DNA of 64,000 bases, taken from the NCBI GenBank assembly GCA_003605035.1, contig QZKJ01000078.1, forward strand, positions 163 through 64,162. Direction: 5' to 3'. The position numbers and the translations under genes are program-made. Below, one piece after another: positions 7,789 through 53,187 of the stretch (position 1 is its first letter; each line of letters starts with the position of its first letter). Source of the stretch: Desulfurivibrio sp. Its GTDB lineage: Bacteria; Desulfobacterota; Desulfobulbia; Desulfobulbales; SURF-16. Under the pieces are notes generated by a model, which saw nothing but the letters and a program-made list of their open reading frames with translations, was not told where the DNA came from and made no database searches.

Positions 7789-8405
7789 AAACCCATATTT
7801 CTGCAGTTGACCCTTTGGATCAACAGACGACGGCGAAGATAATCATTATAAGGCCCCCAAATTGTTCCTGAAAATGAAGCATATTGTTTCGAATTAAGAA
7901 AATTGGCATCAGAACCGCCAGCCCGGGCCAGAATCGAGATGACCACACTGCGAACTTCCTCAACGTCCGCGGTAACCGCATCGTCTTCATCAAGATATAC
8001 AAATTCAAGTTCTTCAATGTTCTGGGCGATGGGTTGAGTATTTCTTGTAATTTCCTTTTCTACAGTATCCAGAGCATAGGTAATATTTTCTCCAGAGTCG
8101 ACGACATCATCATCCTCATTGAGATCCATGCTAAAATTAATACTGGACGCAGTGATGGCAAGCAAAGCGGCTCCGGCTTTTCCTGTTGAATCATATCCTG
8201 CCATTTTTATCTCCCTGGTCATCATATCAAGTCCGGCACGGATATTCTGCTGCATTTCCGCAACCTGATCCTGAGCGGTATAACTGTTCTGCTGGGACTG
8301 AAACGCTGAATAAATTGAGGCTATAACAATACCGGAAATCAGCATGGTGATCAGTAATTCAATGAGGGTAAAACCCCTCTGCATATCTTCAACATGGGTT
8401 CTCAT
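7785..8405 (-). CDS. pilW: PilW-like minor pilin
   Basis: 206 aa. MRTHVEDMQRG|FTLIELLITMLISG prepilin motif. Gene order is GspH-like, W, V, X, Y1. Confidence 0.8.
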   Translation of the reverse strand: MRTHVEDMQRGFTLIELLITMLISGIVIASIYSAFQSQQNSYTAQDQVAEMQQNIRAGLDMMTREIKMAGYDSTGKAGAALLAITASSINFSMDLNEDDDVVDSGENITYALDTVEKEITRNTQPIAQNIEELEFVYLDEDDAVTADVEEVRSVVISILARAGGSDANFLNSKQYASFSGTIWGPYNDYLRRRLLIQRVNCRNMGL

Positions 8406-8451
8406 CTTTTAACATTTAACCCCGGTCTTATGAGATTCACGGTTGTCAACC

Positions 8452-8976
8452 TTATAACCTTTCCAAGGTCAAACCACCTGCAAGGGAAAGTGAAATCTGG
8501 TAACGTACATTATCATCGTTCCTCACTTGCACGTTACCAATTCGACTGCTCAACGGCAGCCCCCGCGCAGTAAAACCAGGAGTAGTGCTGCCTAAAGAAA
8601 AATTTACGCTATCCAGATCAACACTGGCAGGCATAGTGACATTGGCCAGAATTCTTTCATCCCCATTTTGCGTATCATCATCCGCGGTTCCGGTTGTTCC
8701 TCCATTATCAACAAAAACCTGATACGTTTCCGCACCGGCGTTAAAAGAGAGCACCACATTGCTGTTGGTTTTAATGGCCTCAATCCGGGCTTTCTGAAAA
8801 TTCGTATAAATCTCGCGGGCTGCTGCCTTGAGGCGATAATTGGCGATCCACTGAGAATAATTAGGTATCGCAATGGCCATCAGAACACCCATTATGGCCA
8901 TGACCACAATAAGCTCGACTGTCGTGAAGCCCTGACTGTTTCGATGCAATTTTGTTACTCGCTGGCGATATTTCAT
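8452..8976 (-). CDS. GspH/FimT/FimU-family minor pilin
   Basis: The ORF track extends to 9087, but the internal ATG at 8976 gives MKYRQRVTKLHRNSQG|FTTVELIVVMAIMG, a normal prepilin leader. First gene of the operon. Confidence 0.7.
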   Translation of the reverse strand: MKYRQRVTKLHRNSQGFTTVELIVVMAIMGVLMAIAIPNYSQWIANYRLKAAAREIYTNFQKARIEAIKTNSNVVLSFNAGAETYQVFVDNGGTTGTADDDTQNGDERILANVTMPASVDLDSVNFSLGSTTPGFTARGLPLSSRIGNVQVRNDDNVRYQISLSLAGGLTLERL

Positions 8977-34119: not shown

Positions 34120-36222
34120 TCAGGGCGATTTGGGGAACAACTGCATCCAGAAGGGATTGACTCCCTGCCTGGCCAGCAGATACCAGGCGGTTGCCCCGAT
34201 ATGCAGCCGCCGGGGATAGGTCCACTGCCCTGACCACTCACCGATCTCTTTCATAAAACCCGTCTCGGCCTTATCCGGGCAGGAGGCCTGGATGCCCGTG
34301 CCCCGGCCGCTGCCCGGCTGGATCTCAGCGGCAAAAACCGGACCGGCCAGAGAGCTGAGGATCTGCTCGGCCGGCTCCCTGCTGCCGAGAAAGTTGTAGA
34401 CCGCCGCCACCTGGGCCGTGCCCTCAGCCCAGATCCCGCTGCCCTCCCGGCTGAACCGGTAACCACGGGAGCCGGCGCAGGCGGGGTGGGGCTGCACTTC
34501 CCGCACATTATCTTCAAGCCAGCGGATGGGGGCCGGCAGCGCGGCATCATCCTGCCAGCCGATGACCCGGCGAAACTCGGGGTCATGGCCCATGGCCAGC
34601 AGGCTCCAGGTCTGCACATCCAGCGGGACCACCTCCCGGTTGACCGTGCCTTCGAGATCAATGGCGCCTGCCAGAAAATGCCCCTGCTCAGGGTCATACA
34701 TCTTCAGGACAAAGCTGCGGGCGTGCCTGGCCCGCTCAAGCCAGACCGGATCATTGGTGAGATCGGCCAACTGCATGAAGGCAACAAAGAGATCGATGTT
34801 ATGCTCGGTGCTGCGCCACAGTAAACGCTGCGGCCCGCTGCCGCTGGCGTCGTTCCCCCAGCCGTCAAAGCCGCCGCTGTAGCCGCCGCCTTTGCCTGTC
34901 AGGACATCAGGACTGGCGGCCATCTCCTCAATCCGGCAATTGCGCTCAATCCACTCCGCCCCCTGCAGGGCTGCATGCAGGTAATGATGCTCCCGGCCCG
35001 GCAGCGAATACTTGCGATGGGCGGCCAGCAGGGAGATGACGGCCCAGGCCATATTGCCCGTATCCGTACTGACCTGGTAGCGGTCCTCCACCCAGGCGGC
35101 CACGGCGCTGCCTGACCCGTCACCGGCCGGAACCTGCCACCAGCCGGGCAAACGGGCCGGGTCCGCGGCAAGCAGATCGATCGGCACGGCCAGGTAGGCG
35201 TTGCGCCACCTGCCGTCCCGGTAATAGCGGTCATGATTCTGCAGCCAGACCAGGGTATCGGCCAGGATTTTCCCCCGCCTGGCGCTGTCCGGGTCCCCTT
35301 TGGCCAGATAGGCCAGCAGAGCCAGGGCATTGTCATAAAGAAAGGCGGCATTGCGCAGTGATTTGTCCTCGTCGGCCATGGTTGCCCGGTATGATCTGAC
35401 CAGCCGCAGCATGTTCGGGTCCGCGTTGTTGTATCTGACATCATCAAGATAAACGGTGGCGCCCTGACGATTTTTGCCGGCATCAAAGTAGATGGAAAAC
35501 CCGCCGATTACCCCGGTGAGGTTTGAGCCTGGCGGGATAACAAGCTTAAACGGCTGCCAGCTGGTGGTCAGCTTCAACAGTTTCGGTTCGTATTTCAACA
35601 GGGTCAGGGTATCACGGTGCGGCAGGCCGGCATCGCCCTCCTCATTCACCCCGCCGGCCTCGATCCTGACCAGCTCACCGCCGACCTTGCCGCGGATCCA
35701 GCCGGTCAGCTCGGTGGCCCCCACCAGGACCCGGCCATGCCGTTCCCCCCAGTTACCGCCGCTTACATTGGGATAGACCCAGGTCACTCCGGCCCAGCCT
35801 CTTTTTTTCGCCGGCTGATAGGTGATACGCAGGCAGGTTTTGCCGGCAAAGGGGCTATCCCAGCTGTCAGGGGCCAGGGTAAGATCCTTCACATCACCCG
35901 ACCAGTTGACGGGATAAAAACCGGCGGCCCCGCTGTCATACTCGTCATAAACCACCGTGCCATCGGTCAGGCGGTCCATCTCCCGGGCCAGATAGCCATA
36001 GAGGGCGTCAAGCTGGACCGGCGGGACGGTGCTCGGGGTCGCGACTGTTTCGCTGGTTGGAGCTGGGGAAAGGATTGTTTCCTGCTGCCCGGCTTCCTGG
36101 GCAAGCAGGCTGCCGCCCAGGCCGGCCAGAGGCGGAGAAAAAAGGCAGAGGATGATGAGGGCCTGCAGGAGGCGGGTTGGCGACGGTAAAAGGAGTCGAA
36201 ACGCAGCGGATAATTTTTTCAT
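34120..36222 (-). CDS. secreted protein with probable (alpha/alpha)6 six-hairpin glycosidase-like C-terminal domain
   Basis: ATG at 36222 gives MKKLSAAFRLLLPS...LCLF (signal). Motifs such as RNAAFLYDNALALLAYLAKGDPDSARRGKILADTLVWLQ resemble six-hairpin/GH-like toroid repeats. The function is not established. Confidence 0.5.
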   Translation of the reverse strand: MKKLSAAFRLLLPSPTRLLQALIILCLFSPPLAGLGGSLLAQEAGQQETILSPAPTSETVATPSTVPPVQLDALYGYLAREMDRLTDGTVVYDEYDSGAAGFYPVNWSGDVKDLTLAPDSWDSPFAGKTCLRITYQPAKKRGWAGVTWVYPNVSGGNWGERHGRVLVGATELTGWIRGKVGGELVRIEAGGVNEEGDAGLPHRDTLTLLKYEPKLLKLTTSWQPFKLVIPPGSNLTGVIGGFSIYFDAGKNRQGATVYLDDVRYNNADPNMLRLVRSYRATMADEDKSLRNAAFLYDNALALLAYLAKGDPDSARRGKILADTLVWLQNHDRYYRDGRWRNAYLAVPIDLLAADPARLPGWWQVPAGDGSGSAVAAWVEDRYQVSTDTGNMAWAVISLLAAHRKYSLPGREHHYLHAALQGAEWIERNCRIEEMAASPDVLTGKGGGYSGGFDGWGNDASGSGPQRLLWRSTEHNIDLFVAFMQLADLTNDPVWLERARHARSFVLKMYDPEQGHFLAGAIDLEGTVNREVVPLDVQTWSLLAMGHDPEFRRVIGWQDDAALPAPIRWLEDNVREVQPHPACAGSRGYRFSREGSGIWAEGTAQVAAVYNFLGSREPAEQILSSLAGPVFAAEIQPGSGRGTGIQASCPDKAETGFMKEIGEWSGQWTYPRRLHIGATAWYLLARQGVNPFWMQLFPKSP

Positions 36223-36468
36223 TTTTTTATTCTCGGTGCGGGATATTGGGCAATAGGCCAGGAGTGGCAAGGGTCGGAGCGAATTGAGGCATGATTTCCG
36301 GTTCGAGATTTTTTCATCAATGATTGAAACGAAATTTGTCTGGTTCCCCTGCATTCCTGGTGCTCAACTAACAATCATATGGTTTCCAGATAACTATCAC
36401 ATCCTAAAAAGATTGCCAAACGATATTGTCAGAGCTGCTGTTTTTCTGCCTCTTGCTACCTCCCAATC

Positions 36469-36619
36469 AATGTCATTAACTTTAGCTTTTTCTAATGGCA
36501 GAAGCCTCGGGATGTCATTCCGGCGAAGGCCGGAATCCAGAGATTTGAAGAAGTTCTGGACCCCGGCCTTCGCCGGGGTGACGGCGGGAAACTTCGAATA
36601 CTCTTAAGTTAATGACATT
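36469..36619. mobile_element. second copy of the AATGTCATTAACTT...AAGTTAATGACATT-terminated MITE-like element, with a different core
   Basis: Left end is AATGTCATTAACTTTAG (from 36469). Right end is CTTAAGTTAATGACATT (36603..36619). The core carries GTCATTCCGGCGAAGGCCGGAATCCAG and CCCCGGCCTTCGCCGGGG REP-type hairpins. Confidence 0.6.
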
Positions 36620-36676
36620 GCCCTCCGATATACACCATAAAAAAGGATTCTCGCATTACCCCATATCAGAATTGTC

Positions 36677-36748: not shown

Positions 36749-37372
36749 ATGAGCCGCCGCGAAACCACCAAACTTGAGACCCGGCAACTGATCCTGGAGG
36801 CTGCCCGCAAACTTTTTCACCGCAGGGGGCCCGAGTTGTGCACCATGCGGGACATTGCCAGGGAGGCCGGGGTGTCGCCGGCCTCGGTGGTGGTCCACTT
36901 CAAAAACAAGACCGCCCTGCTGGAAGTGGCCCTGTATGAAGACATTGAACAGACCATTGCCAAGGCAGTTGCCACCATGCCGCAGGCGGGGGCCTCCCTG
37001 CATGGGCGGCTCATGCACATCGCCCGCTGCATGTATGGTTTTTATGATAACGACCGCGAGCTCTACCGGGTGCTGATTCGCGATACGACATTTGAGAAGG
37101 CAGGGGAAAACCCCTATCTGACCAGGCAACTGCAGGAGTATCTGCAGTTTTTCGGGGCCCTCATCGAACAGGAAAAGGAACGGGGCAAGGTACGGCCTGG
37201 TGCGGATGCCCGAATTGCCGCCTCCTCGCTTTTTTCCCTCTATTTCAGTGTACTCATGGAGTTTCTGCGCAGTCCCGACCTGACCCCGGACATGGCGCTC
37301 GGCTGGCTTTCGGAAGCAGTACGCCAGCATTTGACCGGCATTGTGCCGCCGGAAGGAGACAAGGGTAAATGA
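36749..37372 (+). CDS. TetR/AcrR-family transcriptional regulator
   Basis: 207 aa. RQLILEAARKLFHRRGPELCTMRDIAREAGVSPASVVVHFKNKTALL is a canonical TetR HTH. ATGA overlap with the RND gene. Confidence 0.9.
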   Translation: MSRRETTKLETRQLILEAARKLFHRRGPELCTMRDIAREAGVSPASVVVHFKNKTALLEVALYEDIEQTIAKAVATMPQAGASLHGRLMHIARCMYGFYDNDRELYRVLIRDTTFEKAGENPYLTRQLQEYLQFFGALIEQEKERGKVRPGADARIAASSLFSLYFSVLMEFLRSPDLTPDMALGWLSEAVRQHLTGIVPPEGDKGK

Positions 37373-40300
37373 CCGCGGTCCATAAAAAATTCGAAAACTG
37401 GTTCGCCCGGCTCGCGGCCCTGGTTTACCGGCACCCCTATGCAGCCCTGCTCTTTATTTTTCTGTTGACCGCCGCCCTGGCCGGCCAGATGGCAAAACTC
37501 ACCATCGATACCCGAGATGAAAGTTTTTTCGGCGAAGATGACCCGGCCCTGATCGCCTACAACGGTTTCCGGGACACCTTCGGCCAGGATGACATGTTCA
37601 TCATCTCCATGCGCCCCCACCATGGCCTGACCCGGGATTTTCTTGCCACGCTGACTGAACTGCACCACCAACTGGAGGCAAAGGTCCCCTATCTTGCCGA
37701 CATCACCAGTCTGGTCAACGGCCGCATCGTCTACGGCCAGGGCGACACCCTGGTGGTCGACGAACTGATGACAGAGCCGCCCCGGACAGAGGCGGAACGA
37801 GAGCTGCTGCTTGCCCAGATCGACCGTTATCCGCTCTATGAAAAGCTGCTGGTCTCCACAGACAGGTCCATGACCTCAATCCTCATCAAGGCCCAGGCGA
37901 TCAAGCCGGTGGCGGAAAAGGATCTGCTGGCCGGCTTTGCCGATGATGCCCCGTCCCCAGCCCCGGCAGCGCACCGCTACCTCAGCAATGAGGAGAGCAT
38001 CGAAATCTCCCGGGCGATCAGCCAGGTGGTGGCCGGCTTCCAGGGCCGGGGCATCGACTTTCATCTGAGCGGCACCCCTTTGGTGGTGGCCGAACTGACC
38101 AGCACTATTAATGATGATCTGCGCACCATGGTGCCGCTCTCCTTTCTGCTCATCGTCCTGTTTCTTGCCGTGTTGTTCCGCCGCATCTCCGGGGTGCTCT
38201 ATCCCCTGCTGATCGTGTTGCTGTCGCTGATTGCCACCCTGGGACTCATGGGCCTGTGCCGCATCCCCATCACCATGGTCATGCAGATCCTGCCCTCCTT
38301 TCTGGTGGTAGTTGGCATCGGCGACAGCGTGCACATTCTGACCATTTTCTACCGCCTGTATCGCCGGAGCGGCGACAAGGAGCAGGCCATTGTCCAGGCC
38401 ATGGGCTTTGCCGGCCTGCCGGTGCTGATGACCAGCGTTACCACCGCCTGCGGTCTGCTCTCCTTTGCCTGGGCTGATCTGAACAATGTGGCCCAGCTCG
38501 GTTACATGGCGCCGGCAGGGGTGATGCTGGCCCTGCTCTATACCGTGATGCTGCTGCCGGCGCTGATCGCCATCTTCCCGATCAGCCCGGGCCGCGATGC
38601 CGCAGCCGCACGGCTGCCCCTGGCCGACCGGATTTTTACCTGGATCGCCGCGGTCACCACCCGGCGGCCGCTGCTGATATGCCTTATCTCTGCCATCATG
38701 GTCAGTCTCGCCCTGTGGAGCGCGCTTTCCGTCAGGTTTGCCCATAACGCCCTCACCTGGTTCCCCCGGGACTCTCCCACCCGGGTGGCCACTGAACTGC
38801 TGGATCGGGTCAACGGCGGTACAGTCATGCTTGAGGCGCTGGTGGATACGGGCCGGGAAACCGGACTGCATGAACCTGACCTGCAGCGCCGCCTGAGCGA
38901 GGCGGCCCAGACCATCCCGACCCTGGAGGCCCATGGCATCCGGGCGGCCAAGGCCTGGTCCCTGGCCGATGTGCTGAAAGAAACCAACCGGGCCCTGCAT
39001 GAGGGCCGGGATGAGGCTTACCGGGTGCCCGAGAGCCGTGAGCTGATCGCCCAGGAACTCATTCTCTTTGAATCGGGCGGCAGCGACGACCTGGAGGATG
39101 TCGCGGACAGCACCTATCAGACCGGACGCCTCTCCATCCTGGCCCCGTGGACCGATGCGGTTCTGTACAAGGATTACATTGACCGGGTCTCAGAGTATCT
39201 GGCCAGCCAGTTTCCCCATGAGCAGGTGCGGCTCACCGGCCACATCGTCCTGTTCATGCAGATCATTAAAAAGGTCATCACCAGCATGGCCAAGAGCTAT
39301 GCCTTTGCCCTGGTGGTGATCTCGCTGCTCATGGTGCTGCTGGTGGGCCGGGTGCGCATCGGCCTGCTCAGCATGATTCCCAATGTGGTGCCGATCATTT
39401 TTATCCTGGGGCTGATGGGCCGGCTCGCTATCCCCCTGGACCTGAGCACCATGCTGATCGGCAGCATTGTCCTGGGTCTGGTGGTGGATGACACCATCCA
39501 CTTTCTGCACCATTTCCGCCGGGCCTTTGAGGAGAGCGGCGAGGTGGAAACCGCAGTGCGCGAGACCATGCTCACCACCGGCCGGGCCATGGTGATCACC
39601 AGCATCGTGCTGTGCGGCGGTTTCTTCATCTACACCACCGCTTATCTGGCCAGCAGCGTGCGTTACGGCCTGCTCACCGGCAGCGCGGTGCTCTTTGCCC
39701 TGGCCGCCGATTTCTTCCTGGTGCCGGCCCTGCTCAGTCTGGTCAGTCTGAATAGCCCTACTGGTCCGACCAGTCGGACCAGCAAGACCGTTCCCATCAT
39801 CTTTTTATTATGCCTGCTGCCGATACTGGCCCACGCCGGAAACGATGCTAACCGGGCCAGATCCATCATGCAACAGGTGGACGCCCGGGACGACGGGGAC
39901 CACTCCATTGCCGACATGCAGATGCTTCTCATCGACCGACACGGCAGGAAACGCAGCCGCACCATCCGTTCCTTCGGCCTGGACCGGGGCAAGGACCGCT
40001 GCAATCTGATGTTCTTCCTCGCCCCGGCCGATGTCAAGGATACCGGCTTTCTCACCTATGACTACGATGAGGGGGGTAAAGACGATGACCAGTGGCTCTA
40101 TCTGCCGGCCCTGAAAAAAACCAAACGCATTGCGGCAAGCGACCGGAGCGGCAGTTTCATGGGTTCTGATTTCAGCTATGCCGATCTGACCAAACGGCGG
40201 CTCGACGATTACACCTACTCATTCAACCAGGAACAGCGGGAGGCCAGGGTGTACGGGCAACAGACCTGGGTTATCGATTCCCTGCCGGCCAATACCAGAG

Positions 40301-40590
40301 TGCTTGAGGAAACCGGCTACAGCCGTTCGATCCTCTTTGTCAGGCAGGACAACTTCATGGTGGTGCGCGCCATCCACTTTGCCACGGAGGGCGGTTTGCG
40401 CAAGTATTTTGATGTGAAGCGGATGGAGCTGGTGGACAATATCTGGACCAGCCTGGAGATCCATATGAGCGCGAGAAAGGGGGATGAGCTGGTGCACCGG
40501 ACCATTCTCACCCTAGACAATGTCCGCTATAACCAGGAAGCGGTGGATGACCAGCTGTTCACGGTCCGTACCCTTGAAAAAGGGCTGTAA
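37369..40590 (+). CDS. RND-superfamily (MMPL-type) transporter fused to a C-terminal LolA-like 'outer membrane lipoprotein-sorting' domain
   Basis: 1073 aa with two 6-TM bundles and large loops. After the last bundle come a PTGPTSRTS linker and an extra hydrophobic segment, VPIIFLLCLLPILAHA. The next ~270 aa carry IMQQVDARDDGD...RTIRSF...LMFFLAPADVKDTGFL...WLYLPALKKTKRIA...SFMGSDFSYADL, typical of LolA-like sorting proteins. Confidence 0.8.
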   Translation: MTAVHKKFENWFARLAALVYRHPYAALLFIFLLTAALAGQMAKLTIDTRDESFFGEDDPALIAYNGFRDTFGQDDMFIISMRPHHGLTRDFLATLTELHHQLEAKVPYLADITSLVNGRIVYGQGDTLVVDELMTEPPRTEAERELLLAQIDRYPLYEKLLVSTDRSMTSILIKAQAIKPVAEKDLLAGFADDAPSPAPAAHRYLSNEESIEISRAISQVVAGFQGRGIDFHLSGTPLVVAELTSTINDDLRTMVPLSFLLIVLFLAVLFRRISGVLYPLLIVLLSLIATLGLMGLCRIPITMVMQILPSFLVVVGIGDSVHILTIFYRLYRRSGDKEQAIVQAMGFAGLPVLMTSVTTACGLLSFAWADLNNVAQLGYMAPAGVMLALLYTVMLLPALIAIFPISPGRDAAAARLPLADRIFTWIAAVTTRRPLLICLISAIMVSLALWSALSVRFAHNALTWFPRDSPTRVATELLDRVNGGTVMLEALVDTGRETGLHEPDLQRRLSEAAQTIPTLEAHGIRAAKAWSLADVLKETNRALHEGRDEAYRVPESRELIAQELILFESGGSDDLEDVADSTYQTGRLSILAPWTDAVLYKDYIDRVSEYLASQFPHEQVRLTGHIVLFMQIIKKVITSMAKSYAFALVVISLLMVLLVGRVRIGLLSMIPNVVPIIFILGLMGRLAIPLDLSTMLIGSIVLGLVVDDTIHFLHHFRRAFEESGEVETAVRETMLTTGRAMVITSIVLCGGFFIYTTAYLASSVRYGLLTGSAVLFALAADFFLVPALLSLVSLNSPTGPTSRTSKTVPIIFLLCLLPILAHAGNDANRARSIMQQVDARDDGDHSIADMQMLLIDRHGRKRSRTIRSFGLDRGKDRCNLMFFLAPADVKDTGFLTYDYDEGGKDDDQWLYLPALKKTKRIAASDRSGSFMGSDFSYADLTKRRLDDYTYSFNQEQREARVYGQQTWVIDSLPANTRVLEETGYSRSILFVRQDNFMVVRAIHFATEGGLRKYFDVKRMELVDNIWTSLEIHMSARKGDELVHRTILTLDNVRYNQEAVDDQLFTVRTLEKGL

Positions 40591-41923
40591 GAAGGCCGCT
40601 CTGGCCTGCCTGCCGGGGCTCCTGCTTCTGCAGGCGGTTGCGGCGGCGGGCGAGGCTGAGCTGTTCAGCGGCTTTGAGGATGGGGCAGCATTCGGCCCGG
40701 AAACGGTCAGCGAAGGCAGGGATGCCCTTCTTTTCAGCGGCTATGCCAAGCTGGGCGCCACCTGGAATATCGCCCACCACGCCCCGGCGGCGGGCGAGAC
40801 CGACTGGCGCGGCCTGTCACGACTGCGGACCGAGCTGCAGCTGGAGGCGGATTACCGGCATCAGCAGTGGCGACTTTTTGCCTCGGCCAAGGGGTTCTAT
40901 GATTATGCCTATGCCATCAACGGCCGCAGCGACTATACGGCTGCCGTGCTGGATGAGTATGAATGGGAGGCCCAACTGCGCGAGGCCTTTGTGCAGGGGG
41001 CGCTCAGCGACAGCCTCGACCTGAAGCTCGGCCGCCAGACCGTGGTCTGGGGCCGCTCCGACAACTTCCGGGTCACCGATCTGCTCAACCCCCTGGACAA
41101 CCGGGAGCCGGGACTCACCGATCTCGAGGACCTGCGGCTGCCCACCACCATGAGCAAAATCGATTACTTTCGCGGCAACTGGCAGCTTGCCCTGATCGGC
41201 ATCCACGAACATCGTTTTGACAAGCTGCCGCCCTTCGGCTCTGATTTCTACCCCGCCCCCCTGCCAGCCCCGTCCGAGGAGAAACCGGCCGCCACTCTGG
41301 GCAACACAGGCCTGGCCCTTGAGGTGCAGGGCATCTTTTCCGGCTGGGACATCTCCTTTTACGGGGCGGATGTCTATAACGACCAGGCTACTATCGTTCC
41401 TTCCGCCCCCCTGACCCGGGAGCATCGCCGCATCAAGATGGCCGGCGCAGCCATCAACCTGGCCAGGGGAAATTTCCTCTACCTTTTTGAAGCTGCCCAT
41501 CGCCGCGGCCTGCGCTTCCTGAGCGATTACCAGACGGATTACCGCCGCACCGACCTGCTGGCCGGCATCGAATACCGCGGCTTTACCGACACCGCGGTCA
41601 GCGTGGATCTGGTCAACCGCCATCTGCACCACTATCAGTCAGAGCTGAACGACTCTCCGGAATTTCCGCAACGAGACGCGCCCCAGGCAGCGCTGCGCCT
41701 CAGCCGCGAGCTGTTTCACCAGAGGCTTGACCTCACCGCCCTGCTGATCGTCCTGGGTGAACGGGCCCGGGACGGTGCCTTGGCGCGTTTCACCGCCACC
41801 TATGATCTGGCCGACAACTGGAGCCTGACCGGCGGCCTGATCTTTTATCAATCCGGCAGCGGGACAATGGCCACTGCCGGTGAGAATGACCGGCTCCTCC
41901 TGGAAATCCGCCGCGATTTCTGA
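40547..41923 (+). CDS. DUF1302-family outer-membrane beta-barrel protein
   Basis: LREAFVQGALSDSLDLKLGRQTVVWGRSDNFRVTDLLNPLDNREP is the DUF1302 signature. The protein has a signal peptide and a C-terminal ...EIRRDF with terminal Phe. The start is uncertain: ATG 40547 has an AGGAAG SD, and ATG 40520 is the alternative. Either overlaps the RND gene. Confidence 0.72.
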   Translation: MTSCSRSVPLKKGCKKAALACLPGLLLLQAVAAAGEAELFSGFEDGAAFGPETVSEGRDALLFSGYAKLGATWNIAHHAPAAGETDWRGLSRLRTELQLEADYRHQQWRLFASAKGFYDYAYAINGRSDYTAAVLDEYEWEAQLREAFVQGALSDSLDLKLGRQTVVWGRSDNFRVTDLLNPLDNREPGLTDLEDLRLPTTMSKIDYFRGNWQLALIGIHEHRFDKLPPFGSDFYPAPLPAPSEEKPAATLGNTGLALEVQGIFSGWDISFYGADVYNDQATIVPSAPLTREHRRIKMAGAAINLARGNFLYLFEAAHRRGLRFLSDYQTDYRRTDLLAGIEYRGFTDTAVSVDLVNRHLHHYQSELNDSPEFPQRDAPQAALRLSRELFHQRLDLTALLIVLGERARDGALARFTATYDLADNWSLTGGLIFYQSGSGTMATAGENDRLLLEIRRDF

Positions 41924-42241: not shown

Positions 42242-42411
42242 CCTAAGAGTCTGTCGGACTTAGACATAAATCTACTGCAAACCCGAGAAATCGGCCCATA
42301 TTTCCATGGTTTTTCGTTAAATAGCCCAACTATTCGCCTCAAACCCATGAAAATCTGGTCTCGATTTCTCGATTTTTCGCTACGATTCTCTAAGTCCGAC
42401 AGACTCATAGG
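42242..42411. mobile_element. 170-bp MITE-like element with 23-bp terminal inverted repeats (1 mismatch)
   Basis: CCTAAGAGTCTGTCGGACTTAGA at 42242..42264 pairs with TCTAAGTCCGACAGACTCATAGG at 42389..42411. The inner 18 bp are perfect. Confidence 0.7.
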
Positions 42412-42471: not shown

Positions 42472-43350
42472 ATGAAAAATCCGGGAACACAGTCACTGCT
42501 CCTGGCAGGCTCCCTCATACTGGCGTTTCATACCCCGGTGCTGGCTGATAACGACGCCCGGGATTACATCCCCCTGGAACCCGGCACCACCTTGATCGCC
42601 GCCTATTACAATTACATCAGCGCCACCGATTTTTACGCGGATGGCGACAAAATCAACAGTGACACAAATCTAAGTGCCAATATCGGCATATTAAGGCCTG
42701 TTTATTATACCAAGCTGGGTCCCTTTGTCATCGACCCCCAGATGCTGATCCCCTTTGGTGAGCAATCACTGGATGGCGACGGAGTGGGCGGAGTGGAAAT
42801 CAGCTCATCAGGCCTGGCTGACCCCATTGTCACTGCCACCATCTGGCTGGTCAACGATCCCGCATCAAAGACCTGGCTTGGCTTCACCCCCTTCATCACC
42901 GTGCCGCTGGGTGAATATGACGAGGATAAGGCATTGAATATGGGGGCAAACCGCTGGGCCTTCAAACCGGAGGTCGGTTTTGTCAAAGGCTTTGGCAACT
43001 ATTTTTTTGAACTCACCGGCAACTGCGAATTTTATACGGACAACGATGACTTTTCCGCGCAGTCACTCACCCTGGAACAGGATCCCGTCTATACCCTGGA
43101 AAGTCATCTGAGTTATAATTTCAGCGATGCTTTTTATATCTCCGGCGATTACTTCTACCACAACGGCGGCGAGACCACCCTTGCCGGCATTGATCAACAT
43201 GATGAGAAAGATGATCATGCCGTGCAGCTTACCCTGGGTTTCCTGCTTAATCCCTCCTATCAGCTGCTTCTGAAATACAAAACTGATATCGAAGTGGAAA
43301 ACGGCCTGAAAACCAACACCGTCGGGCTGCGTTTCGCCCATTTCTTTTAA
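42472..43350 (+). CDS. outer-membrane beta-barrel protein (MetA-pathway/'transporter' OMP family-like)
   Basis: 292 aa with a signal peptide ...HTPVLA. DARDYIPLEPGTTLIAAYYNY is the N-terminal motif of that family. Alternating beta-strand pattern, and a C-terminal GLRFAHFF beta-signal. Confidence 0.6.
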   Translation: MKNPGTQSLLLAGSLILAFHTPVLADNDARDYIPLEPGTTLIAAYYNYISATDFYADGDKINSDTNLSANIGILRPVYYTKLGPFVIDPQMLIPFGEQSLDGDGVGGVEISSSGLADPIVTATIWLVNDPASKTWLGFTPFITVPLGEYDEDKALNMGANRWAFKPEVGFVKGFGNYFFELTGNCEFYTDNDDFSAQSLTLEQDPVYTLESHLSYNFSDAFYISGDYFYHNGGETTLAGIDQHDEKDDHAVQLTLGFLLNPSYQLLLKYKTDIEVENGLKTNTVGLRFAHFF

Positions 43351-50404: not shown

Positions 50405-51757
50405 TCAGCCGATCATCATTTTTTCTTCGGGATGGGTGTAATAACGCTCCCGGTAAAGACTGTTCATGGCATCCAGAAAGATGAGCGGCCCGAGGCGGCC
50501 GATAAACATCAGCAGGATGACAATACATTTCCCTGCCAGGGAAAGTTTGGGCGTCAGACCGGTGGTCAACCCCACCGTCCCGAAAGCCGAGGTCGCCTCA
50601 AAAAGGGCATCAAGAAACAAGCCGCCGATGTCCTGGTGGGAAGCCCCGCCCCCCTCGGTGATGTTGAGCAGAATTGTAGCGCAAAAAATAATAGTTACCG
50701 CAAAAATCAGCAAGGTGAAGGCCTTGTTCATCGTTTCCTCTTCAATGCCGTACCCCTGCACCACAGACTGCCTGCGCCTGAGGATCTGCGCCCAGGCGAA
50801 GGCCGCCAGGACCCGGAAAGTGGTCACCTTGATGCCGCCGGCACAGGAACCGGGAGCGCCGCCGATGAACATGAGAATCAGCATGATGAGCAGCGACACA
50901 TTGGTCATGCCAGCGATGTCCAGGGTGTTGAACCCGGCGGTGCGGCAGGTGACGGATTGGAAAAGGGACGACAGTACGGCCTCTACCAGGGGCAGCGGCC
51001 GGCTGGGGATATACTCGGCCAGGCAGATGCAGAACCCGCCGGTTACGATGAGAAACATGGATGTTTTCATGACCACCCGGCAATACCAGCTAACCGGTCT
51101 GACCGGCTTGTTCCGCAAACGTTTGCCGGTCCAGCTGCCCAGTTCCACCAGAACTGAAAAACCGATGCCGCCGGAAATAATCAGCGCCATGATGAGGGTG
51201 TTGACGACAAAATCACCCCGCCAGCCCATGAGATTATCGGGGAAAAGGCCAAAGCCGGCGTTGCAGAAGGCGGAAACGGCATGAAAAAGGGCGGAGAAAG
51301 GATGGAAAGCGATGGGACTGCGCAGATAGAGCAGAAACGCCCCGGCAATTTCGATGGAAAAGGTCCAGAGCATGATCTGCACGAGAAAATGGCCGAGATG
51401 AAAACTCCTGTCATGCAGCAATCCCTGGCCGATGATGATTCTGTCAGTCATGGAAACCTTGTGGCGCCAGAGATAAAAGGCCAGGGCGCTGAAGGTCATG
51501 ATACCCAGACCGCCAAGCTGAATGAGCAGCAGAATCACGCTTTGCCCCAGCAGATTGTAACTCGTGCCGGTATCGACCACCGTAAGGCCGGTGACGCAGG
51601 TTGCCGAGGTGGCGGTGAACAGGGCATCGATGAAAGATACCTCCCTGCCCGGCTGGCAGCACTGCGGCTGATGCAGAGCAGTGGCGCCGGTCAGGATAAC
51701 CAGACCGAAAAAAATGATCGGCAGCCAGATTACCGGCAGCAGAAAGCGTTTTTTCAT
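50405..51757 (-). CDS. trkH: potassium transporter membrane subunit (TrkH/KtrB family)
   Basis: ATG at 51757 gives MKKRFLLPV.... The repeated M1-P-M2 motifs with selectivity-filter glycines (TGLT, NAGF, RTAGF, TVGLT) are typical of the family. Confidence 0.9.
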   Translation of the reverse strand: MKKRFLLPVIWLPIIFFGLVILTGATALHQPQCCQPGREVSFIDALFTATSATCVTGLTVVDTGTSYNLLGQSVILLLIQLGGLGIMTFSALAFYLWRHKVSMTDRIIIGQGLLHDRSFHLGHFLVQIMLWTFSIEIAGAFLLYLRSPIAFHPFSALFHAVSAFCNAGFGLFPDNLMGWRGDFVVNTLIMALIISGGIGFSVLVELGSWTGKRLRNKPVRPVSWYCRVVMKTSMFLIVTGGFCICLAEYIPSRPLPLVEAVLSSLFQSVTCRTAGFNTLDIAGMTNVSLLIMLILMFIGGAPGSCAGGIKVTTFRVLAAFAWAQILRRRQSVVQGYGIEEETMNKAFTLLIFAVTIIFCATILLNITEGGGASHQDIGGLFLDALFEATSAFGTVGLTTGLTPKLSLAGKCIVILLMFIGRLGPLIFLDAMNSLYRERYYTHPEEKMMIG

Positions 51758-51840
51758 AGCAGTTGACCTGCTCCAGGGCAATCCCGCCGGCGGCGCCGGC
51801 GGGATGCCCGTTTGGTTTCGGGAGTCAGTTTCTTTCCCTC

Positions 51841-53187
51841 CTACTGCAACAGCGGCATCATCAGCGTGGCCAGGCTGAGGAAAACGAAAAAGCCGCTGAC
51901 ATCGGTGGCTGCCGTGATGAAAACGCTGGAACCGAGGGCCGGATCAAGCTTTAAGGCCTTGAGAGCCAGCGGAATGGCGGAACCGATCAGACCGGCGATG
52001 ATGAGATTGCAGACCATGGCCAGCAGCATGATCAGCCCCAGCCACGGCTTATGAAAACCGAACATGGCAATGGCGCCGACCAGCAGGCCGATTAAGGCGC
52101 CATTGAGCAGGCCCACCCCTGCCTCCCGCATGATGACCTTGCGGCCGAAACCCAGCGGCACCTTGCCCAGGGCGATGCCGCGCACGGTGACCGCCAGGGT
52201 CTGGGTGCCGGCGTTGCCGCCGAGACCGGCGATGATCGGCATGAGGGCGGCCAGAATGACGTAATGGGAGATGGTATCCTGAAAACGGCTGACCGTATAC
52301 GATGAGAGCATGGCGGTGGCAAGATTCAAGGTCAGCCACGGGCTGCGCAGGCGGATACTCTGCAGAATGGAGGTATTTTCATATTCCTCCGAGTCGGTGC
52401 TGGCCATGCGCAGCATGTCCTCGGTGGCCTCTTCGGTGACCACGTCCAGGGCATCGTCATGGGTGATGATGCCGACCAGGGCGGCCCCGCCGTTGACCAC
52501 GGGCAGGGCGATCAGATCATACTTGGCGATCAGTTCCGCCGCCTTTTCGCGGGGATCAACGGCGCGGACGTAAATCACCTCAGCCTTCATGATGTCCCCC
52601 ACATAGGCGGACGGTTTGGACAGAATGAGTTTGCGCAGGGAGACAAAGCCGAGCAGCCGTCTGCCTTCTCCGATGACATAGGCGTAATAGATGGTCTCCT
52701 TGCCGGGCCATTGGCGGCGGAGCTTTGCCAGGGCCTCGGTTGCGGTGATATCGGGGGTCAGGGTGACATATTCCGAGGTCATGACCGAACCGGCCATGTT
52801 TTCCTCATAGGAACTGAGTTTGCGGATATCCTCCCGCTCAGCCTTGGCCAGCAGGGGGAACACCGACTCCTTGGCCTCATCCGGCAGACGCTTGAACAGA
52901 TCGACCCGCTCGTCGGCCGACATCTCGGTGAGCAGGTCGGCCAGCTCGTCTCTGTTGATATTCTCGGTAAGATAGACCTGAAAATCGAGATTGAAGTAGC
53001 CGAATACCGCAGCCCGCTTCCACGGCCGCATCAGGGAAAGCAACTCCCAGACAGCCTGGGGGGACTCGCCGGTCAGCATCTCGGCAAGGGTAGCCTCGGG
53101 AAGCTCACTGCAGAGATCGCGGCGGGCTTCGGCCTCGCCGCTGAGAAGAAGGATGCGCAGATCCTGCGCGTATTCAGGAGTGGTCAT
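51841..53187 (-). CDS. mgtE: magnesium transporter MgtE
   Basis: 448 aa with an N domain, tandem CBS domains, and a C-terminal 5-TM MgtE domain (PIIAGLGGNAGTQ...ATDVSGF). Confidence 0.95.
   Translation of the reverse strand: MTTPEYAQDLRILLLSGEAEARRDLCSELPEATLAEMLTGESPQAVWELLSLMRPWKRAAVFGYFNLDFQVYLTENINRDELADLLTEMSADERVDLFKRLPDEAKESVFPLLAKAEREDIRKLSSYEENMAGSVMTSEYVTLTPDITATEALAKLRRQWPGKETIYYAYVIGEGRRLLGFVSLRKLILSKPSAYVGDIMKAEVIYVRAVDPREKAAELIAKYDLIALPVVNGGAALVGIITHDDALDVVTEEATEDMLRMASTDSEEYENTSILQSIRLRSPWLTLNLATAMLSSYTVSRFQDTISHYVILAALMPIIAGLGGNAGTQTLAVTVRGIALGKVPLGFGRKVIMREAGVGLLNGALIGLLVGAIAMFGFHKPWLGLIMLLAMVCNLIIAGLIGSAIPLALKALKLDPALGSSVFITAATDVSGFFVFLSLATLMMPLLQ

What the first reader, a model, noticed from the sequence alone, without database searches (positions are those of the whole stretch)
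37369..41923. RND (MMPL-type) transporter covalently fused to a LolA-like sorting domain via a 22-bp perfect palindrome, followed by a DUF1302 barrel
Seen:
- A single 1073-aa ORF contains 12 TM segments of an RND/MMPL exporter.
- Next comes the linker NSPTGPTSRTS, encoded by CTGGTCCGAC-CA-GTCGGACCAG (39761..39782, a perfect 10-2-10 palindrome).
- Then comes VPIIFLLCLLPILAHA, which looks like a retained signal peptide or a 13th TM.
- Then comes a ~270-aa LolA-like 'outer membrane lipoprotein-sorting' domain.
- The next gene overlaps and encodes a DUF1302 barrel. A TetR gene precedes the operon with an ATGA overlap.

Established: RND + LolA-like + DUF1302 genes commonly occur as separate neighbouring genes in putative lipid or hydrophobic-compound export loci.

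Inference: an ancestral intergenic hairpin was converted into a linker, fusing pump and periplasmic carrier. The extra TM would correctly place the LolA-like domain in the periplasm. This gives a physically tethered inner-membrane-to-periplasm handoff.
Basis: partly seen in the sequence, partly recalled or inferred. Interest (0 to 1): 0.55.

Follow-up and report, generated by a model that had tools for sequence, protein, structure and literature searches.

The report
Pump and lipid-carrier genes fused by hairpin collapse
A membrane export pump gene and the neighbouring periplasmic carrier gene were joined into one reading frame when the inside of a hairpin-forming repeat between them was deleted; the carrier's export signal survives and most likely still lets the cell cut the carrier free, so this is a clear example of how genes fuse, not a new kind of machine.

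Summary
ORF 37369-40590 (1073 aa) is an HAE3/MMPL-type RND pump with 12 TM helices. It continues through a 13-residue linker, a retained Sec signal peptide (VPIIFLLCLLPILAHA|G) and a PF17131 LolA-like domain. A TetR gene lies upstream and a DUF1302 barrel gene downstream.

Three loci about 97% identical in DNA have two separate genes. Between them sits a hairpin (-99.9 kcal/mol) made of two inverted arrays of a 9-bp unit. The window equals the best-studied of these minus 212 bp, which restores the frame; the 22-bp palindrome is what remains.

Similar array pairs occur in other operons of a Desulfobulbaceae genome.

The fusion is probably not an artefact. A sister lineage carries a homologous junction in three assemblies. 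A Desulfobacter clade (62-67% identity, one on a closed chromosome) is uniformly fused. dN/dS shows no relaxation.

A permanent tether is not supported. Every reliable fused lineage keeps a short h-region plus small residues at -3/-1. This suggests signal peptidase releases a free carrier.

Fused forms are rare: about 3 of the 120 best pump homologues.

It is a new variant of a known, poorly understood system. Interest is moderate.

The parts
36749..37372 (+). TetR-family regulator; its stop overlaps the pump start codon (ATGA)
   Evidence: Pfam TetR_N, E 5.8e-16. The overlap was read directly. The same gene is present in all related loci.
37369..39750 (+). RND pump part (residues 1-794): 12 TM helices and two large periplasmic loops, HAE3/MMPL type
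   Evidence: Pfam MMPL 98 bits. NCBIfam HAE3 TIGR00921 E 4.7e-59, 200 bits, which is below its 351.9 cut-off. Hydropathy. AlphaFold2 pLDDT is mostly above 85. The best solved relative is HpnN, 6wu0/5khn.
39751..39789 (+). Linker N795-T807 (NSPTGPTSRTSKT). It is made from one left-arm unit (PTG) and two right-arm units (TSR, TSK) of the former intergenic repeat, and is predicted to be cytoplasmic
   Evidence: Alignment with split loci L001, L007 and L104 and with fused L002. pLDDT is below 50 over 796-824.
39761..39782 (.). Perfect 10-2-10 palindrome CTGGTCCGAC CA GTCGGACCAG: the collapsed remnant of the hairpin and the deletion junction
   Evidence: In L001 the deleted stretch is 8399-8610, flanked by GTC microhomology. 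Position 8399 pairs with 8611 in the predicted 23-bp stem.
39790..39837 (+). Retained Sec signal peptide V808-A823 (VPIIFLLCLLPILAHA), now internal; predicted signal peptidase I site is A823|G824
   Evidence: It differs at one residue (I819 here, M there) from the signal peptide of the stand-alone LolA-like proteins of L001 and L007. There is no in-frame ATG, GTG or TTG between TM12 and this segment. An A-x-A site is conserved in the fused Desulfobacter clade.
39838..40590 (+). Mature LolA-like domain (G824-L1073) plus stop codon
   Evidence: PF17131, E 7e-48. The closest solved structures are 9tp6 LolA3 of P. gingivalis (E 4e-46), 3bk5 and 4z48. The domain is confidently modelled. dN/dS is 0.13.
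40520..41923 (+). DUF1302 outer-membrane barrel gene, overlapping the end of the fused ORF (start at 40520, or at 40547 as annotated in relatives)
   Evidence: PF06980, 95 bits. The same gene follows the fused or split pair in every related locus that extends far enough downstream to show it, including the distant fused loci L100, L102 and L103; the decayed locus L004 is the exception.
42472..43350 (+). Second outer-membrane protein (Phenol_MetA_deg family), probably part of the same hydrophobic-compound locus
   Evidence: PF13557, E 4e-34. It is present in L001 and L007 but absent at this position in L002.

Best explanation
What it is. This is a real and very recent in-frame fusion of two adjacent operon genes: an HAE3/MMPL-type RND inner-membrane pump and its periplasmic LolA-like partner. 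The operon is TetR-controlled and also encodes a DUF1302 outer-membrane barrel.

How it arose (shown by comparison).
- Ancestrally the two genes overlapped by ATGA.
- In this lineage a hairpin-forming repeat grew between them. It has an array of the 9-bp unit CTGGTCNNA at the pump's 3' end and the inverted array GACCAGNNN at the carrier's 5' end.
- Both arrays are open in the frames used, giving (G-P/L-T)n and (T-S-Q)n tails.
- A deletion of about 212 bp between GTC microhomologies at paired positions of the stem removed the stop codon, the spacer and the start codon. It left the 22-bp palindrome and one continuous frame.

How the product works (inferred).
- After TM12 the chain is in the cytoplasm.
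- The retained signal peptide (808-823) re-engages Sec/YidC, inserts N-in/C-out and exports the LolA-like domain.
- Signal peptidase I then cuts after AHA823, releasing the same soluble carrier that split relatives make.
- The pump keeps a short extra C-terminal hairpin.
- The net effect is a polyprotein with obligatory 1:1 co-synthesis at the same site, not a permanent tether.

What the system does (inferred). By analogy with the related AmeABCD and DUF1302/DUF1329/RND systems, it moves a hydrophobic or amphiphilic compound from the inner membrane across the periplasm to the outer membrane.
For: Origin.
- L001, L007 and L104 are 96-98% identical to the window in DNA. They carry split genes with the inverted arrays and a shared core.
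- The window equals L001 minus 212 bp, which is 2 mod 3 and matches the frame offset between the two genes.
- The L001 hairpin folds at -99.9 kcal/mol, z = -8.4.
- Intermediate stages exist: L010 has no repeat and an ATGA overlap; L005 and L008 have arrays that lie outside the pump ORF.
- Array pairs of similar build lie between argG and argH, and between topoisomerase subunit genes, in a Desulfobulbaceae MAG. Some have arms that abut directly.

Reality of the fusion.
- A homologous fused junction occurs in lineage B1 in a JGI assembly, a Logan assembly and a 242-kb contig. It has three protein variants.
- Independent fused lineages are P0137 (two samples), P0138/P0273 and P0172.
- P0137 and P0406-P0409 form one fused clade at 62-67% identity. 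One member lies on a closed 6.04-Mb chromosome. P0137, P0138 and P0407, the three of these whose surroundings were examined, are each followed by DUF1302.

Function retained.
- dN/dS of the LolA part is 0.13-0.15 in comparisons that involve fused genes, against 0.10-0.11 in split-versus-split comparisons across lineages; the one close split pair has too few differences to count. The RND part gives 0.12-0.19.
- No in-frame canonical start codon remains upstream of the signal peptide. Any periplasmic carrier must therefore come from the fused chain.

Cleavage.
- The h-region is about 13 residues with two prolines, and AHA|G is intact.
- A-x-A and 15-16-residue h-regions are kept across the diverged Desulfobacter fused clade, while the surrounding residues are not.
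- Stand-alone homologues have ordinary Sec signal peptides at the same position.
- AlphaFold2 does not pack the segment into the TM bundle: pLDDT is below 50 over 796-824.
Against: - No reads were available, so the window's own junction rests on one MAG contig.
- Cleavage is inferred only from sequence motifs. Five old-clade sequences is a small sample, and A-x-A can occur by chance in Ala-rich segments.
- The low pLDDT at the junction may simply reflect the few fused rows in the alignment.
- The window-specific branch is short (19 differences in the LolA part), so purifying selection since this particular fusion is weakly tested.
- Fused forms are rare, so the arrangement may carry some cost.
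Confidence: 0.6

Rival explanations
1. Permanent tether. The hydrophobic segment acts as a stable 13th TM helix and is not cut. The LolA-like domain then stays covalently attached to the pump, receives substrate at the membrane surface, and works as a fixed periplasmic adaptor and not as a shuttle.
For: - The topology is compatible.
- Fusion as such is tolerated for long periods in the Desulfobacter clade.
- AmeB-type LolA-superfamily proteins have been proposed to act as adaptor-like components of HAE3 pumps (PMC6394551).
- Recurrent fusion of the two genes is classic evidence for physical interaction.
Against: - The h-region is only about 13-16 residues and rich in proline, which is short for a stable anchor.
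- The -3/-1 small-residue motif is retained in every reliable fused lineage although neighbouring residues diverged.
- The folded domain starts about 10 residues after the hydrophobic stretch. A tethered domain therefore could not cross the periplasm to the DUF1302 barrel.
- The great majority of homologous systems use a free carrier.
Confidence: 0.25
2. Artefact. The organism really has the split arrangement. The 212-bp hairpin interior was lost during library preparation or sequencing (polymerase jumping across a stable stem), or through mis-assembly in the repeat arrays.
For: - The window comes from a single metagenome-assembled contig (RJX28475.1).
- The three other clade-A sequences are all split.
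- Contigs do break in these arrays: L104 starts inside one.
- Some other apparent fusions in the databases are unreliable. P0410 has a scrambled TM12, and L004 has a truncated LolA domain.
Against: - The left and right arms share no same-strand word long enough for a de Bruijn mis-join. Skipping the loop needs reads that contain the palindromic junction (sequence reasoning).
- The deletion is exactly frame-restoring.
- A homologous junction was recovered by different assemblers from different data sets in lineage B1, with point variation inside the linker (GPTDLAG against GPTGLAG).
- Collapsed, core-less versions of the same repeat exist at other loci.
Confidence: 0.08
3. Real but defective. 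The deletion is a recent, slightly deleterious or neutral accident in one strain. The fused chain is misfolded or the carrier is not exported, and the locus is on its way to decay.
For: - The fusion is unique among the four clade-A sequences and therefore very young.
- Fused forms are a small minority overall.
- One fused locus (L004) does look decayed.
Against: - Both halves are intact and under dN/dS of about 0.13.
- The same type of fusion is the only form seen in lineage B1.
- A comparable fusion has persisted across 62-67% protein divergence in Desulfobacter, with the downstream DUF1302 gene still present at the two loci examined.
- Sec-dependent export of a domain after an internal signal sequence is normal membrane-protein biogenesis.
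Confidence: 0.07

Closest known systems
AmeABCD of Castellaniella defragrans, and the co-fit DUF1302/DUF1329/BNR/RND(COG1033) clusters of Shewanella and Pseudomonas
   Same: An HAE3-type RND pump is encoded next to a LolA-superfamily periplasmic protein and a DUF1302 outer-membrane protein. The proposed role is export of hydrophobic compounds or envelope components (PMC6394551; bioRxiv 10.1101/072470).
   Different: - Here the periplasmic partner is PF17131. The DUF1329 hit is only sub-threshold (21.1 against 23.1 bits).
- No COG4447/BNR (AmeC-like) protein was seen among the genes examined in the locus or annotated in its relatives; the window was not searched for one specifically.
- The gene order is reversed: pump first.
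- Pump and carrier form one ORF.
LolA3 of Porphyromonas gingivalis (PDB 9TP6) and the structural-genomics proteins 3BK5 and 4Z48
   Same: The C-terminal domain is a clear sequence homologue (E 4e-46, 9e-28, 5e-25). These are LolA-fold proteins that are not the canonical lipoprotein chaperone. LolA3 binds LolB at most very weakly, and its function is unknown (PMC13103446).
   Different: Those proteins are free periplasmic proteins with N-terminal signal peptides. None is fused to a transporter.
HpnN hopanoid transporter (HAE3 RND; PDB 5KHN, 6WU0)
   Same: It is the closest solved pump by sequence, with the same 12-TM and two-loop plan.
   Different: The match is distant (E about 1e-10 over about 250 residues). 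HpnN works without dedicated periplasmic or outer-membrane partners (as stated in PMC6394551), and it has no C-terminal exported domain.
Polyproteins split at an internal signal peptide, for example the Bradyrhizobium japonicum FbcH cytochrome b-c1 precursor (from my own knowledge; no paper on it was found in the library)
   Same: A polytopic membrane protein is followed in the same chain by a signal peptide and a periplasmic domain. Signal peptidase then separates the two mature proteins.
   Different: Processing of FbcH was shown experimentally. Here it is only inferred from the conserved short h-region and the A-x-A motif.
REP/BIME-type intergenic palindromic repeats
   Same: These are dispersed hairpin-forming repeats that sit between co-transcribed genes. 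Palindromes of this kind are known deletion hot-spots.
   Different: The elements here are inverted arrays of a 9-bp unit with variable copy number. No RAYT transposase link was tested. The exact 24-mer also occurs in many unrelated genomes, so the family is loosely defined.

Membership tests
RND superfamily, MMPL/HAE3 type | Profile match above the curated threshold | tested here: met
   Pfam MMPL PF03176 scores 98.3 bits against a cut-off of 20.5, in two stretches.
RND superfamily, MMPL/HAE3 type | NCBIfam HAE3 subfamily model TIGR00921 at its curated cut-off | tested here: inconclusive
   It is the best NCBIfam hit (E 4.7e-59), but its 200 bits are below the 351.9 cut-off. Several close homologues are named HAE3 by JGI.
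RND superfamily, MMPL/HAE3 type | 12 TM helices with large periplasmic loops after TM1 and TM7 | tested here: met
   Hydropathy and the AlphaFold2 secondary structure both show this. The loops span residues 43-250 and 454-643.
LolA_like / TP_0789-like (PF17131) | Profile match above the gathering score over the full domain | tested here: met
   163 bits against 30, covering profile positions 4-184 of 184. PDB homologues are 9tp6, 3bk5 and 4z48.
Canonical LolA of the Lol lipoprotein pathway | Match to the LolA family proper, and pairing with LolCDE/LolB | tested here: not met
   No LolA family hit appeared at E <= 0.01; only PF17131 and a weak DUF1329 hit were found. The solved homologue LolA3 binds LolB at most very weakly. 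The name 'lipoprotein-sorting' is an annotation label, not a tested function.
DUF1302 (PF06980) outer-membrane protein | Profile match above the gathering score, plus a signal peptide | tested here: met
   95.3 bits against 23.2. The N-terminus is KKGCKKAALACLPGLLLLQAVAAAG.
AmeABCD-type tetrapartite HAE3 cassette | Four genes: DUF1302, DUF1329, a COG4447/BNR propeller and an HAE3 pump | tested here: not met
   No BNR/COG4447 gene appeared among the genes examined in the window or annotated in the related loci, though none was searched for specifically. The carrier is PF17131, not DUF1329, which scores 21.1 bits against 23.1.
Sec signal peptide cleaved by signal peptidase I | Positively charged n-region, an h-region of about 7-15 hydrophobic residues, and small residues at -3 and -1 | tested here: met
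   R803 and K806; V808-L820; A821-H822-A823|G824. The segment is homologous to the N-terminal signal peptides of the stand-alone proteins.
Sec signal peptide cleaved by signal peptidase I | Actual cleavage when the signal is internal | not testable with these tools
   This needs protein expression or proteomics. The only support is indirect: A-x-A is conserved in the old fused clade.
REP-like dispersed intergenic palindromic repeat | Several copies per genome, located between genes, able to form a hairpin | tested here: met
   A Desulfobulbaceae MAG (JALNXE01) has at least four such loci: L013, L032 (between argG and argH), L040 (between topoisomerase subunit genes) and L047. The hairpin energy was computed only for L001. 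The 64-kb window has only the one remnant.
REP-like dispersed intergenic palindromic repeat | Association with a RAYT/TnpA-REP transposase | not tested
   No genome-wide search was possible.

The most novel reading that the evidence does not exclude
The fusion is not cleaved. In the fused lineages the LolA-like domain would then work while covalently anchored to the pump through a 13th TM helix. It would be a natural 'Rosetta stone' showing that HAE3 pumps hand substrate directly to a docked LolA-fold partner, not to a diffusing shuttle. As a second layer, the 9-bp inverted arrays are open in two of three frames and prone to interior deletion. They would then act as recurrent hot-spots that fuse neighbouring operon genes in Desulfobulbales.
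Probability: 0.25. Interest if true: 0.6.

Novelty: new variant of a known kind. Interest (0 to 1): 0.42.

Why it matters
- HAE3 pump / LolA-fold / DUF1302 systems are widespread but mechanistically obscure. The available literature offers only 'exports a cell-wall component' or 'monoterpene efflux'.
- Repeated, independently arisen fusions of the pump and carrier genes are strong comparative evidence that the two proteins act together in a fixed ratio. The fused proteins also give a simple handle to test whether the carrier is released or stays docked: one ORF and one blot.
- The locus preserves every step of a gene fusion in near-identical genomes: an overlapping gene pair, then repeat invasion, then read-through tails, then hairpin collapse. 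That is unusually clean documentation of how intergenic palindromic repeats can create multidomain genes.
- Practically, automatic annotation calls these 1070-1080-aa pump fusions 'outer membrane lipoprotein-sorting protein', which is misleading.

Tried and rejected
- P0004/L004 (53% identity, 1011 aa) as an independent fused example. I rejected the locus itself: its LolA domain is truncated near residue 1004 and no DUF1302 gene follows. Its junction is, however, corroborated by the intact fragment P0172.
- P0410 (1118 aa) was rejected as a frameshift-type artefact, because TM12 is replaced by PG-rich sequence.
- The idea that the repeat is one specific mobile element. The exact 24-mer (GACCAGTCA)n occurs in 88 loci of many unrelated phyla, so the word alone is not diagnostic. 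Only the inverted-array architecture in Desulfobulbales loci is comparable.
- Other copies in the window: none beyond the junction.
- AlphaFold2 as a test of whether residues 808-823 form a packed 13th TM helix. This was uninformative: pLDDT is below 50 and few fused rows were in the alignment.
- One origin or two for the window and B1 fusions. The result was ambiguous. Overall phylogeny separates them (about 85% against 97.5% identity). Yet they share three substitutions within 15 nt next to the junction and the same two right-arm units.
- Exact look-up of the window protein's contig returned nothing.
- The metagenome scan for the fused-junction 34-mer found only the B1 contig.
- Literature searches for a described pump-LolA fusion and for the FbcH precedent found nothing relevant.
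- A lipoprotein (lipobox) reading of C815 was rejected. The residues at -3 to -1 are F-L-L, not L-[AS]-[GA].

Full report
OBSERVATION

- ORF 37369..40590 (+) is one 1073-aa frame.
- Pfam finds MMPL, Sterol-sensing/Patched and ACR_tran signatures in the first 790 or so residues. It finds LolA_like (PF17131, now labelled TP_0789-like) at 878-1071 with E 7e-48.
- The best NCBIfam model is the HAE3 subfamily of RND transporters, although the score is below its curated cut-off.
- Hydropathy and an AlphaFold2 model (mean pLDDT 86.9) show the standard 12-TM plan with two large periplasmic loops.
- After TM12 (ending at V792) comes S793-L794, then the linker N795-T807 (NSPTGPTSRTSKT). Next is the hydrophobic stretch V808-A823 (VPIIFLLCLLPILAHA), and then the LolA-like domain from G824.
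- The palindrome CTGGTCCGAC-CA-GTCGGACCAG sits at 39761-39782 and encodes T798-S805.
- A TetR gene overlaps the start by ATGA, and a DUF1302 gene overlaps the end.
- As a bare statistic the palindrome is only mildly unusual: two such loci in the window against 0.27 expected. Its meaning comes from comparison with relatives.

WHAT THE RELATIVES SHOW

The window protein is RJX28475.1 from a Desulfurivibrio sp. metagenome-assembled genome. A search of 5.8 billion proteins found that 117 of the 120 best pump homologues are ordinary proteins of about 800 aa. All 120 best homologues of the LolA-like part are 209-295 aa, the length of a stand-alone protein, and those inspected carry ordinary N-terminal Sec signal peptides.

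The closest relatives are the informative ones. Three loci about 96-98% identical in DNA carry two separate genes. They are L001 (GCA_049325115.1), L007 (GCA_040756855.1) and L104 (a Logan contig).
- In L001 and L007, where the pump's 3' end is present, the pump ends ...SLVSLNGPTGLTGLTGPTGPTGPTGQKTNNDKTY* (L104 starts inside the left array).
- The carrier starts MAIETTMTCKTSQTNPTIPTNPTSQTSQTSQTSRTSQTVPIIFLLCLLPMLAHA...
- The DNA between them is an array of the 9-bp unit CTGGTCNNA, then a core of about 100 nt holding the stop, spacer and start, then the inverted array GACCAGNNN.
- As RNA this folds at -99.9 kcal/mol (z = -8.4), with a perfect 23-bp stem.
- The window equals L001 with positions 8399-8610 removed. 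That is 212 bp, or 2 mod 3, which is exactly the frame offset between the two genes.
- The deletion is flanked by GTC microhomology, and its endpoints are partners in the stem.
- The palindrome is therefore one surviving left unit abutting two surviving right units.

Earlier stages survive in a sister clade (about 85% identity to the window, 88-90% among its members).
- L010 has no repeat and the plain ATGA overlap (...CCAATATGACCAAAAAG).
- L005 and L008 have the arrays, but the pump stops before them and the carrier starts after them (MTIIFLL...).
- In these loci the right array lies between duplicated copies of GACCAATATGACC.
- Array copy number varies between strains: pump lengths are 823 against 832 aa, and carrier lengths 292, 304 and 307 aa.

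Array pairs of similar build occur at unrelated places in a Desulfobulbaceae MAG. Examples lie between argG and argH, and between two topoisomerase subunit genes. Some have arms that abut directly with no core. The element is thus a dispersed, REP-like intergenic hairpin repeat.

IS THE FUSION REAL?

I could not see reads, and the window allele is known from one contig. Four things argue against an artefact.
- The two arms share no same-strand word long enough to mislead a de Bruijn assembler, so the junction must be present in reads.
- The deletion is frame-restoring.
- Lineage B1 of the sister clade carries a homologous fused junction (...SLTGPTDLAGPAGQTSRTSKTVPIIF..., a 20-1-20 palindrome). 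It appears in a JGI assembly, an independent Logan assembly and a 242-kb contig, as three protein variants that differ even inside the linker.
- Unrelated fused lineages exist, each with its own junction. These are P0137 (identical in two samples), P0138/P0273 and P0172. P0137 and P0406-P0409 form a Desulfobacter clade in which all five members are 1075-1080 aa despite only 62-67% identity. One member lies on a closed 6.04-Mb chromosome (CP054837.1). P0137, P0138 and P0407, the three whose surroundings I examined, are each followed by DUF1302.

Two database 'fusions' (P0410 and the L004 locus) look defective and were set aside.

Selection has not relaxed. dN/dS for the LolA part is 0.13 (window against L001) and 0.15 (B1 against split relatives). 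Split-versus-split comparisons across lineages give 0.10-0.11, and the one close split pair (L001 against L007) has only two differences. No in-frame ATG, GTG or TTG remains between TM12 and the signal peptide. Any exported carrier must therefore come from the fused chain.

One point is unresolved. The window and B1 alleles share three substitutions within 15 nt beside the junction and the same two right-arm units, although their flanks follow their own clades. Either there was one fusion spread by a short gene-conversion tract, or there were two parallel deletions.

HOW IT MOST LIKELY WORKS

Established knowledge of RND topology puts the end of TM12 in the cytoplasm. The linker carries R803 and K806, which fits the positive-inside rule. 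The next hydrophobic segment would therefore insert N-in/C-out and export the LolA-like domain.

The segment is built like a cleavable signal peptide, not like an anchor. It has about 13 hydrophobic residues, two prolines, and A821-H822-A823|G824. It differs at only one residue from the signal peptide of the stand-alone protein in L001.

The strongest clue comes from the old Desulfobacter clade. Its junction segments have diverged almost completely. Yet each keeps a K/R-rich linker, a 15-16-residue h-region and A-x-A (AHA, AHA, AAA, AEA, AQA) at the same distance from the conserved ARAIM..VD motif. The other fused lineages also keep small -3/-1 residues (AEA, AFA, SLA). A permanent tether gives no reason to conserve that motif. 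Continued cleavage by signal peptidase I does.

The folded domain also begins only about 10 residues after the hydrophobic stretch. A tethered domain could not reach the outer-membrane barrel.

I therefore favour a polyprotein model (about 0.6). The chain is made as one piece, the carrier is exported and cut free, and the pump retains a short extra C-terminal hairpin. Function is as in the split operon, but with obligatory 1:1 co-synthesis. The precedent I know of, the B. japonicum FbcH cytochrome b-c1 precursor, is cited from memory; the library search did not retrieve a paper on it. The uncleaved-tether reading keeps about 0.25. AlphaFold2 could not discriminate, because pLDDT is below 50 over 796-824.

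COMPARISON WITH KNOWN SYSTEMS

- The closest characterised relatives are AmeABCD of Castellaniella defragrans and the co-fit DUF1302/DUF1329/BNR/RND clusters of Shewanella and Pseudomonas. AmeABCD combines an HAE3 pump, a DUF1302 protein, a DUF1329 LolA-superfamily protein and a COG4447 protein, and is implicated in monoterpene tolerance. The co-fit clusters were proposed to export an envelope component (PMC6394551; 10.1101/072470; 10.1101/2020.07.04.188060).
- The present locus works like these but is not a member of the four-gene cassette. No BNR protein was seen among the genes examined, the carrier is PF17131 and not DUF1329, and the gene order differs.
- The carrier domain's closest solved homologue is LolA3 of P. 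gingivalis (9TP6). That paralogue binds LolB at most very weakly and has no known function. It is not canonical LolA.
- The pump's closest solved relative is HpnN.
- I found no paper describing a pump-LolA-like fusion. The proteins do sit in public databases under the misleading automatic name 'outer membrane lipoprotein-sorting protein'.

VERDICT

This is a new variant (a fused, probably self-separating form) of a known but poorly understood kind of system. It is also an unusually well-documented fusion mechanism.

The interest is moderate. It would not astonish a specialist. It does offer Rosetta-stone evidence that pump and carrier act together, a cheap experiment to decide release against docking, and a clear case of a palindromic repeat creating a multidomain gene.

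Noticed in passing
window 36464-36620: An intergenic insertion of about 157 bp, absent from the 97.5%-identical locus L001. It has 15-bp terminal inverted repeats (CAATGTCATTAACTT / AAGTTAATGACATTG), looks MITE-like, and lies just upstream of the TetR gene.
   Followed up: partly
window 42246-42407: A second insertion of about 162 bp relative to L001, with 18-bp terminal inverted repeats (GAGTCTGTCGGACTTAGA / TCTAAGTCCGACAGACTC). It lies between the DUF1302 gene and the Phenol_MetA_deg outer-membrane gene.
   Followed up: partly
window 51782-51804: The only other perfect palindrome with arms of at least 10 nt in the window (ATCCCGCCGGCG-G-CGCCGGCGGGAT). It is GC-rich and lies in the 60-bp gap between two minus-strand ORFs (50405-51781 and 51841-53187). 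It may be an inter-cistronic hairpin.
   Followed up: no
L032 7569-7830; L040 4720-4830; L013 4930-5230; L047 4450-4660 (Desulfobulbaceae MAG JALNXE01): A dispersed family of inverted arrays of the 9-bp unit CTGGTCNNA / GACCAGNNN. L032 and L040 lie between co-oriented genes (argG-argH; topoisomerase subunit genes); the gene context of L013 and L047 was not examined. The core varies in length or is absent. The family may be an undescribed REP-like element of Desulfobulbales.
   Followed up: partly
L001 8385-8470 and 8520-8635; L007 5385-5500 and 5547-5670: In the split relatives both genes read through the arrays. The pump gains a (G-P/L-T)n C-terminal tail, and the carrier gains a T-S-Q-rich extension of about 30-45 residues, mostly (T-S-Q)n, ahead of its signal peptide. 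Copy number differs between strains. Whether these tails matter is unknown.
   Followed up: no
P0253 (1125 aa) and P0164 (918 aa): Other homologous HAE3 pumps carry different C-terminal extensions. P0253 has about 340 extra residues beginning with a Rossmann-like VLVTGAFGNIGRH motif, which suggests a cytoplasmic NAD-binding domain. P0164 has about 110 extra residues. C-terminal fusions to this pump family seem to be a recurring theme.
   Followed up: no
window 34120-36354 (-): A 744-aa ORF upstream of the TetR gene has no Pfam hit. It is nevertheless conserved, as a protein of about 700 aa, at the same position in the five related loci that extend far enough upstream for it to be identified (L001, L007, L008, L010 and, by DNA match, L002).
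   Followed up: no
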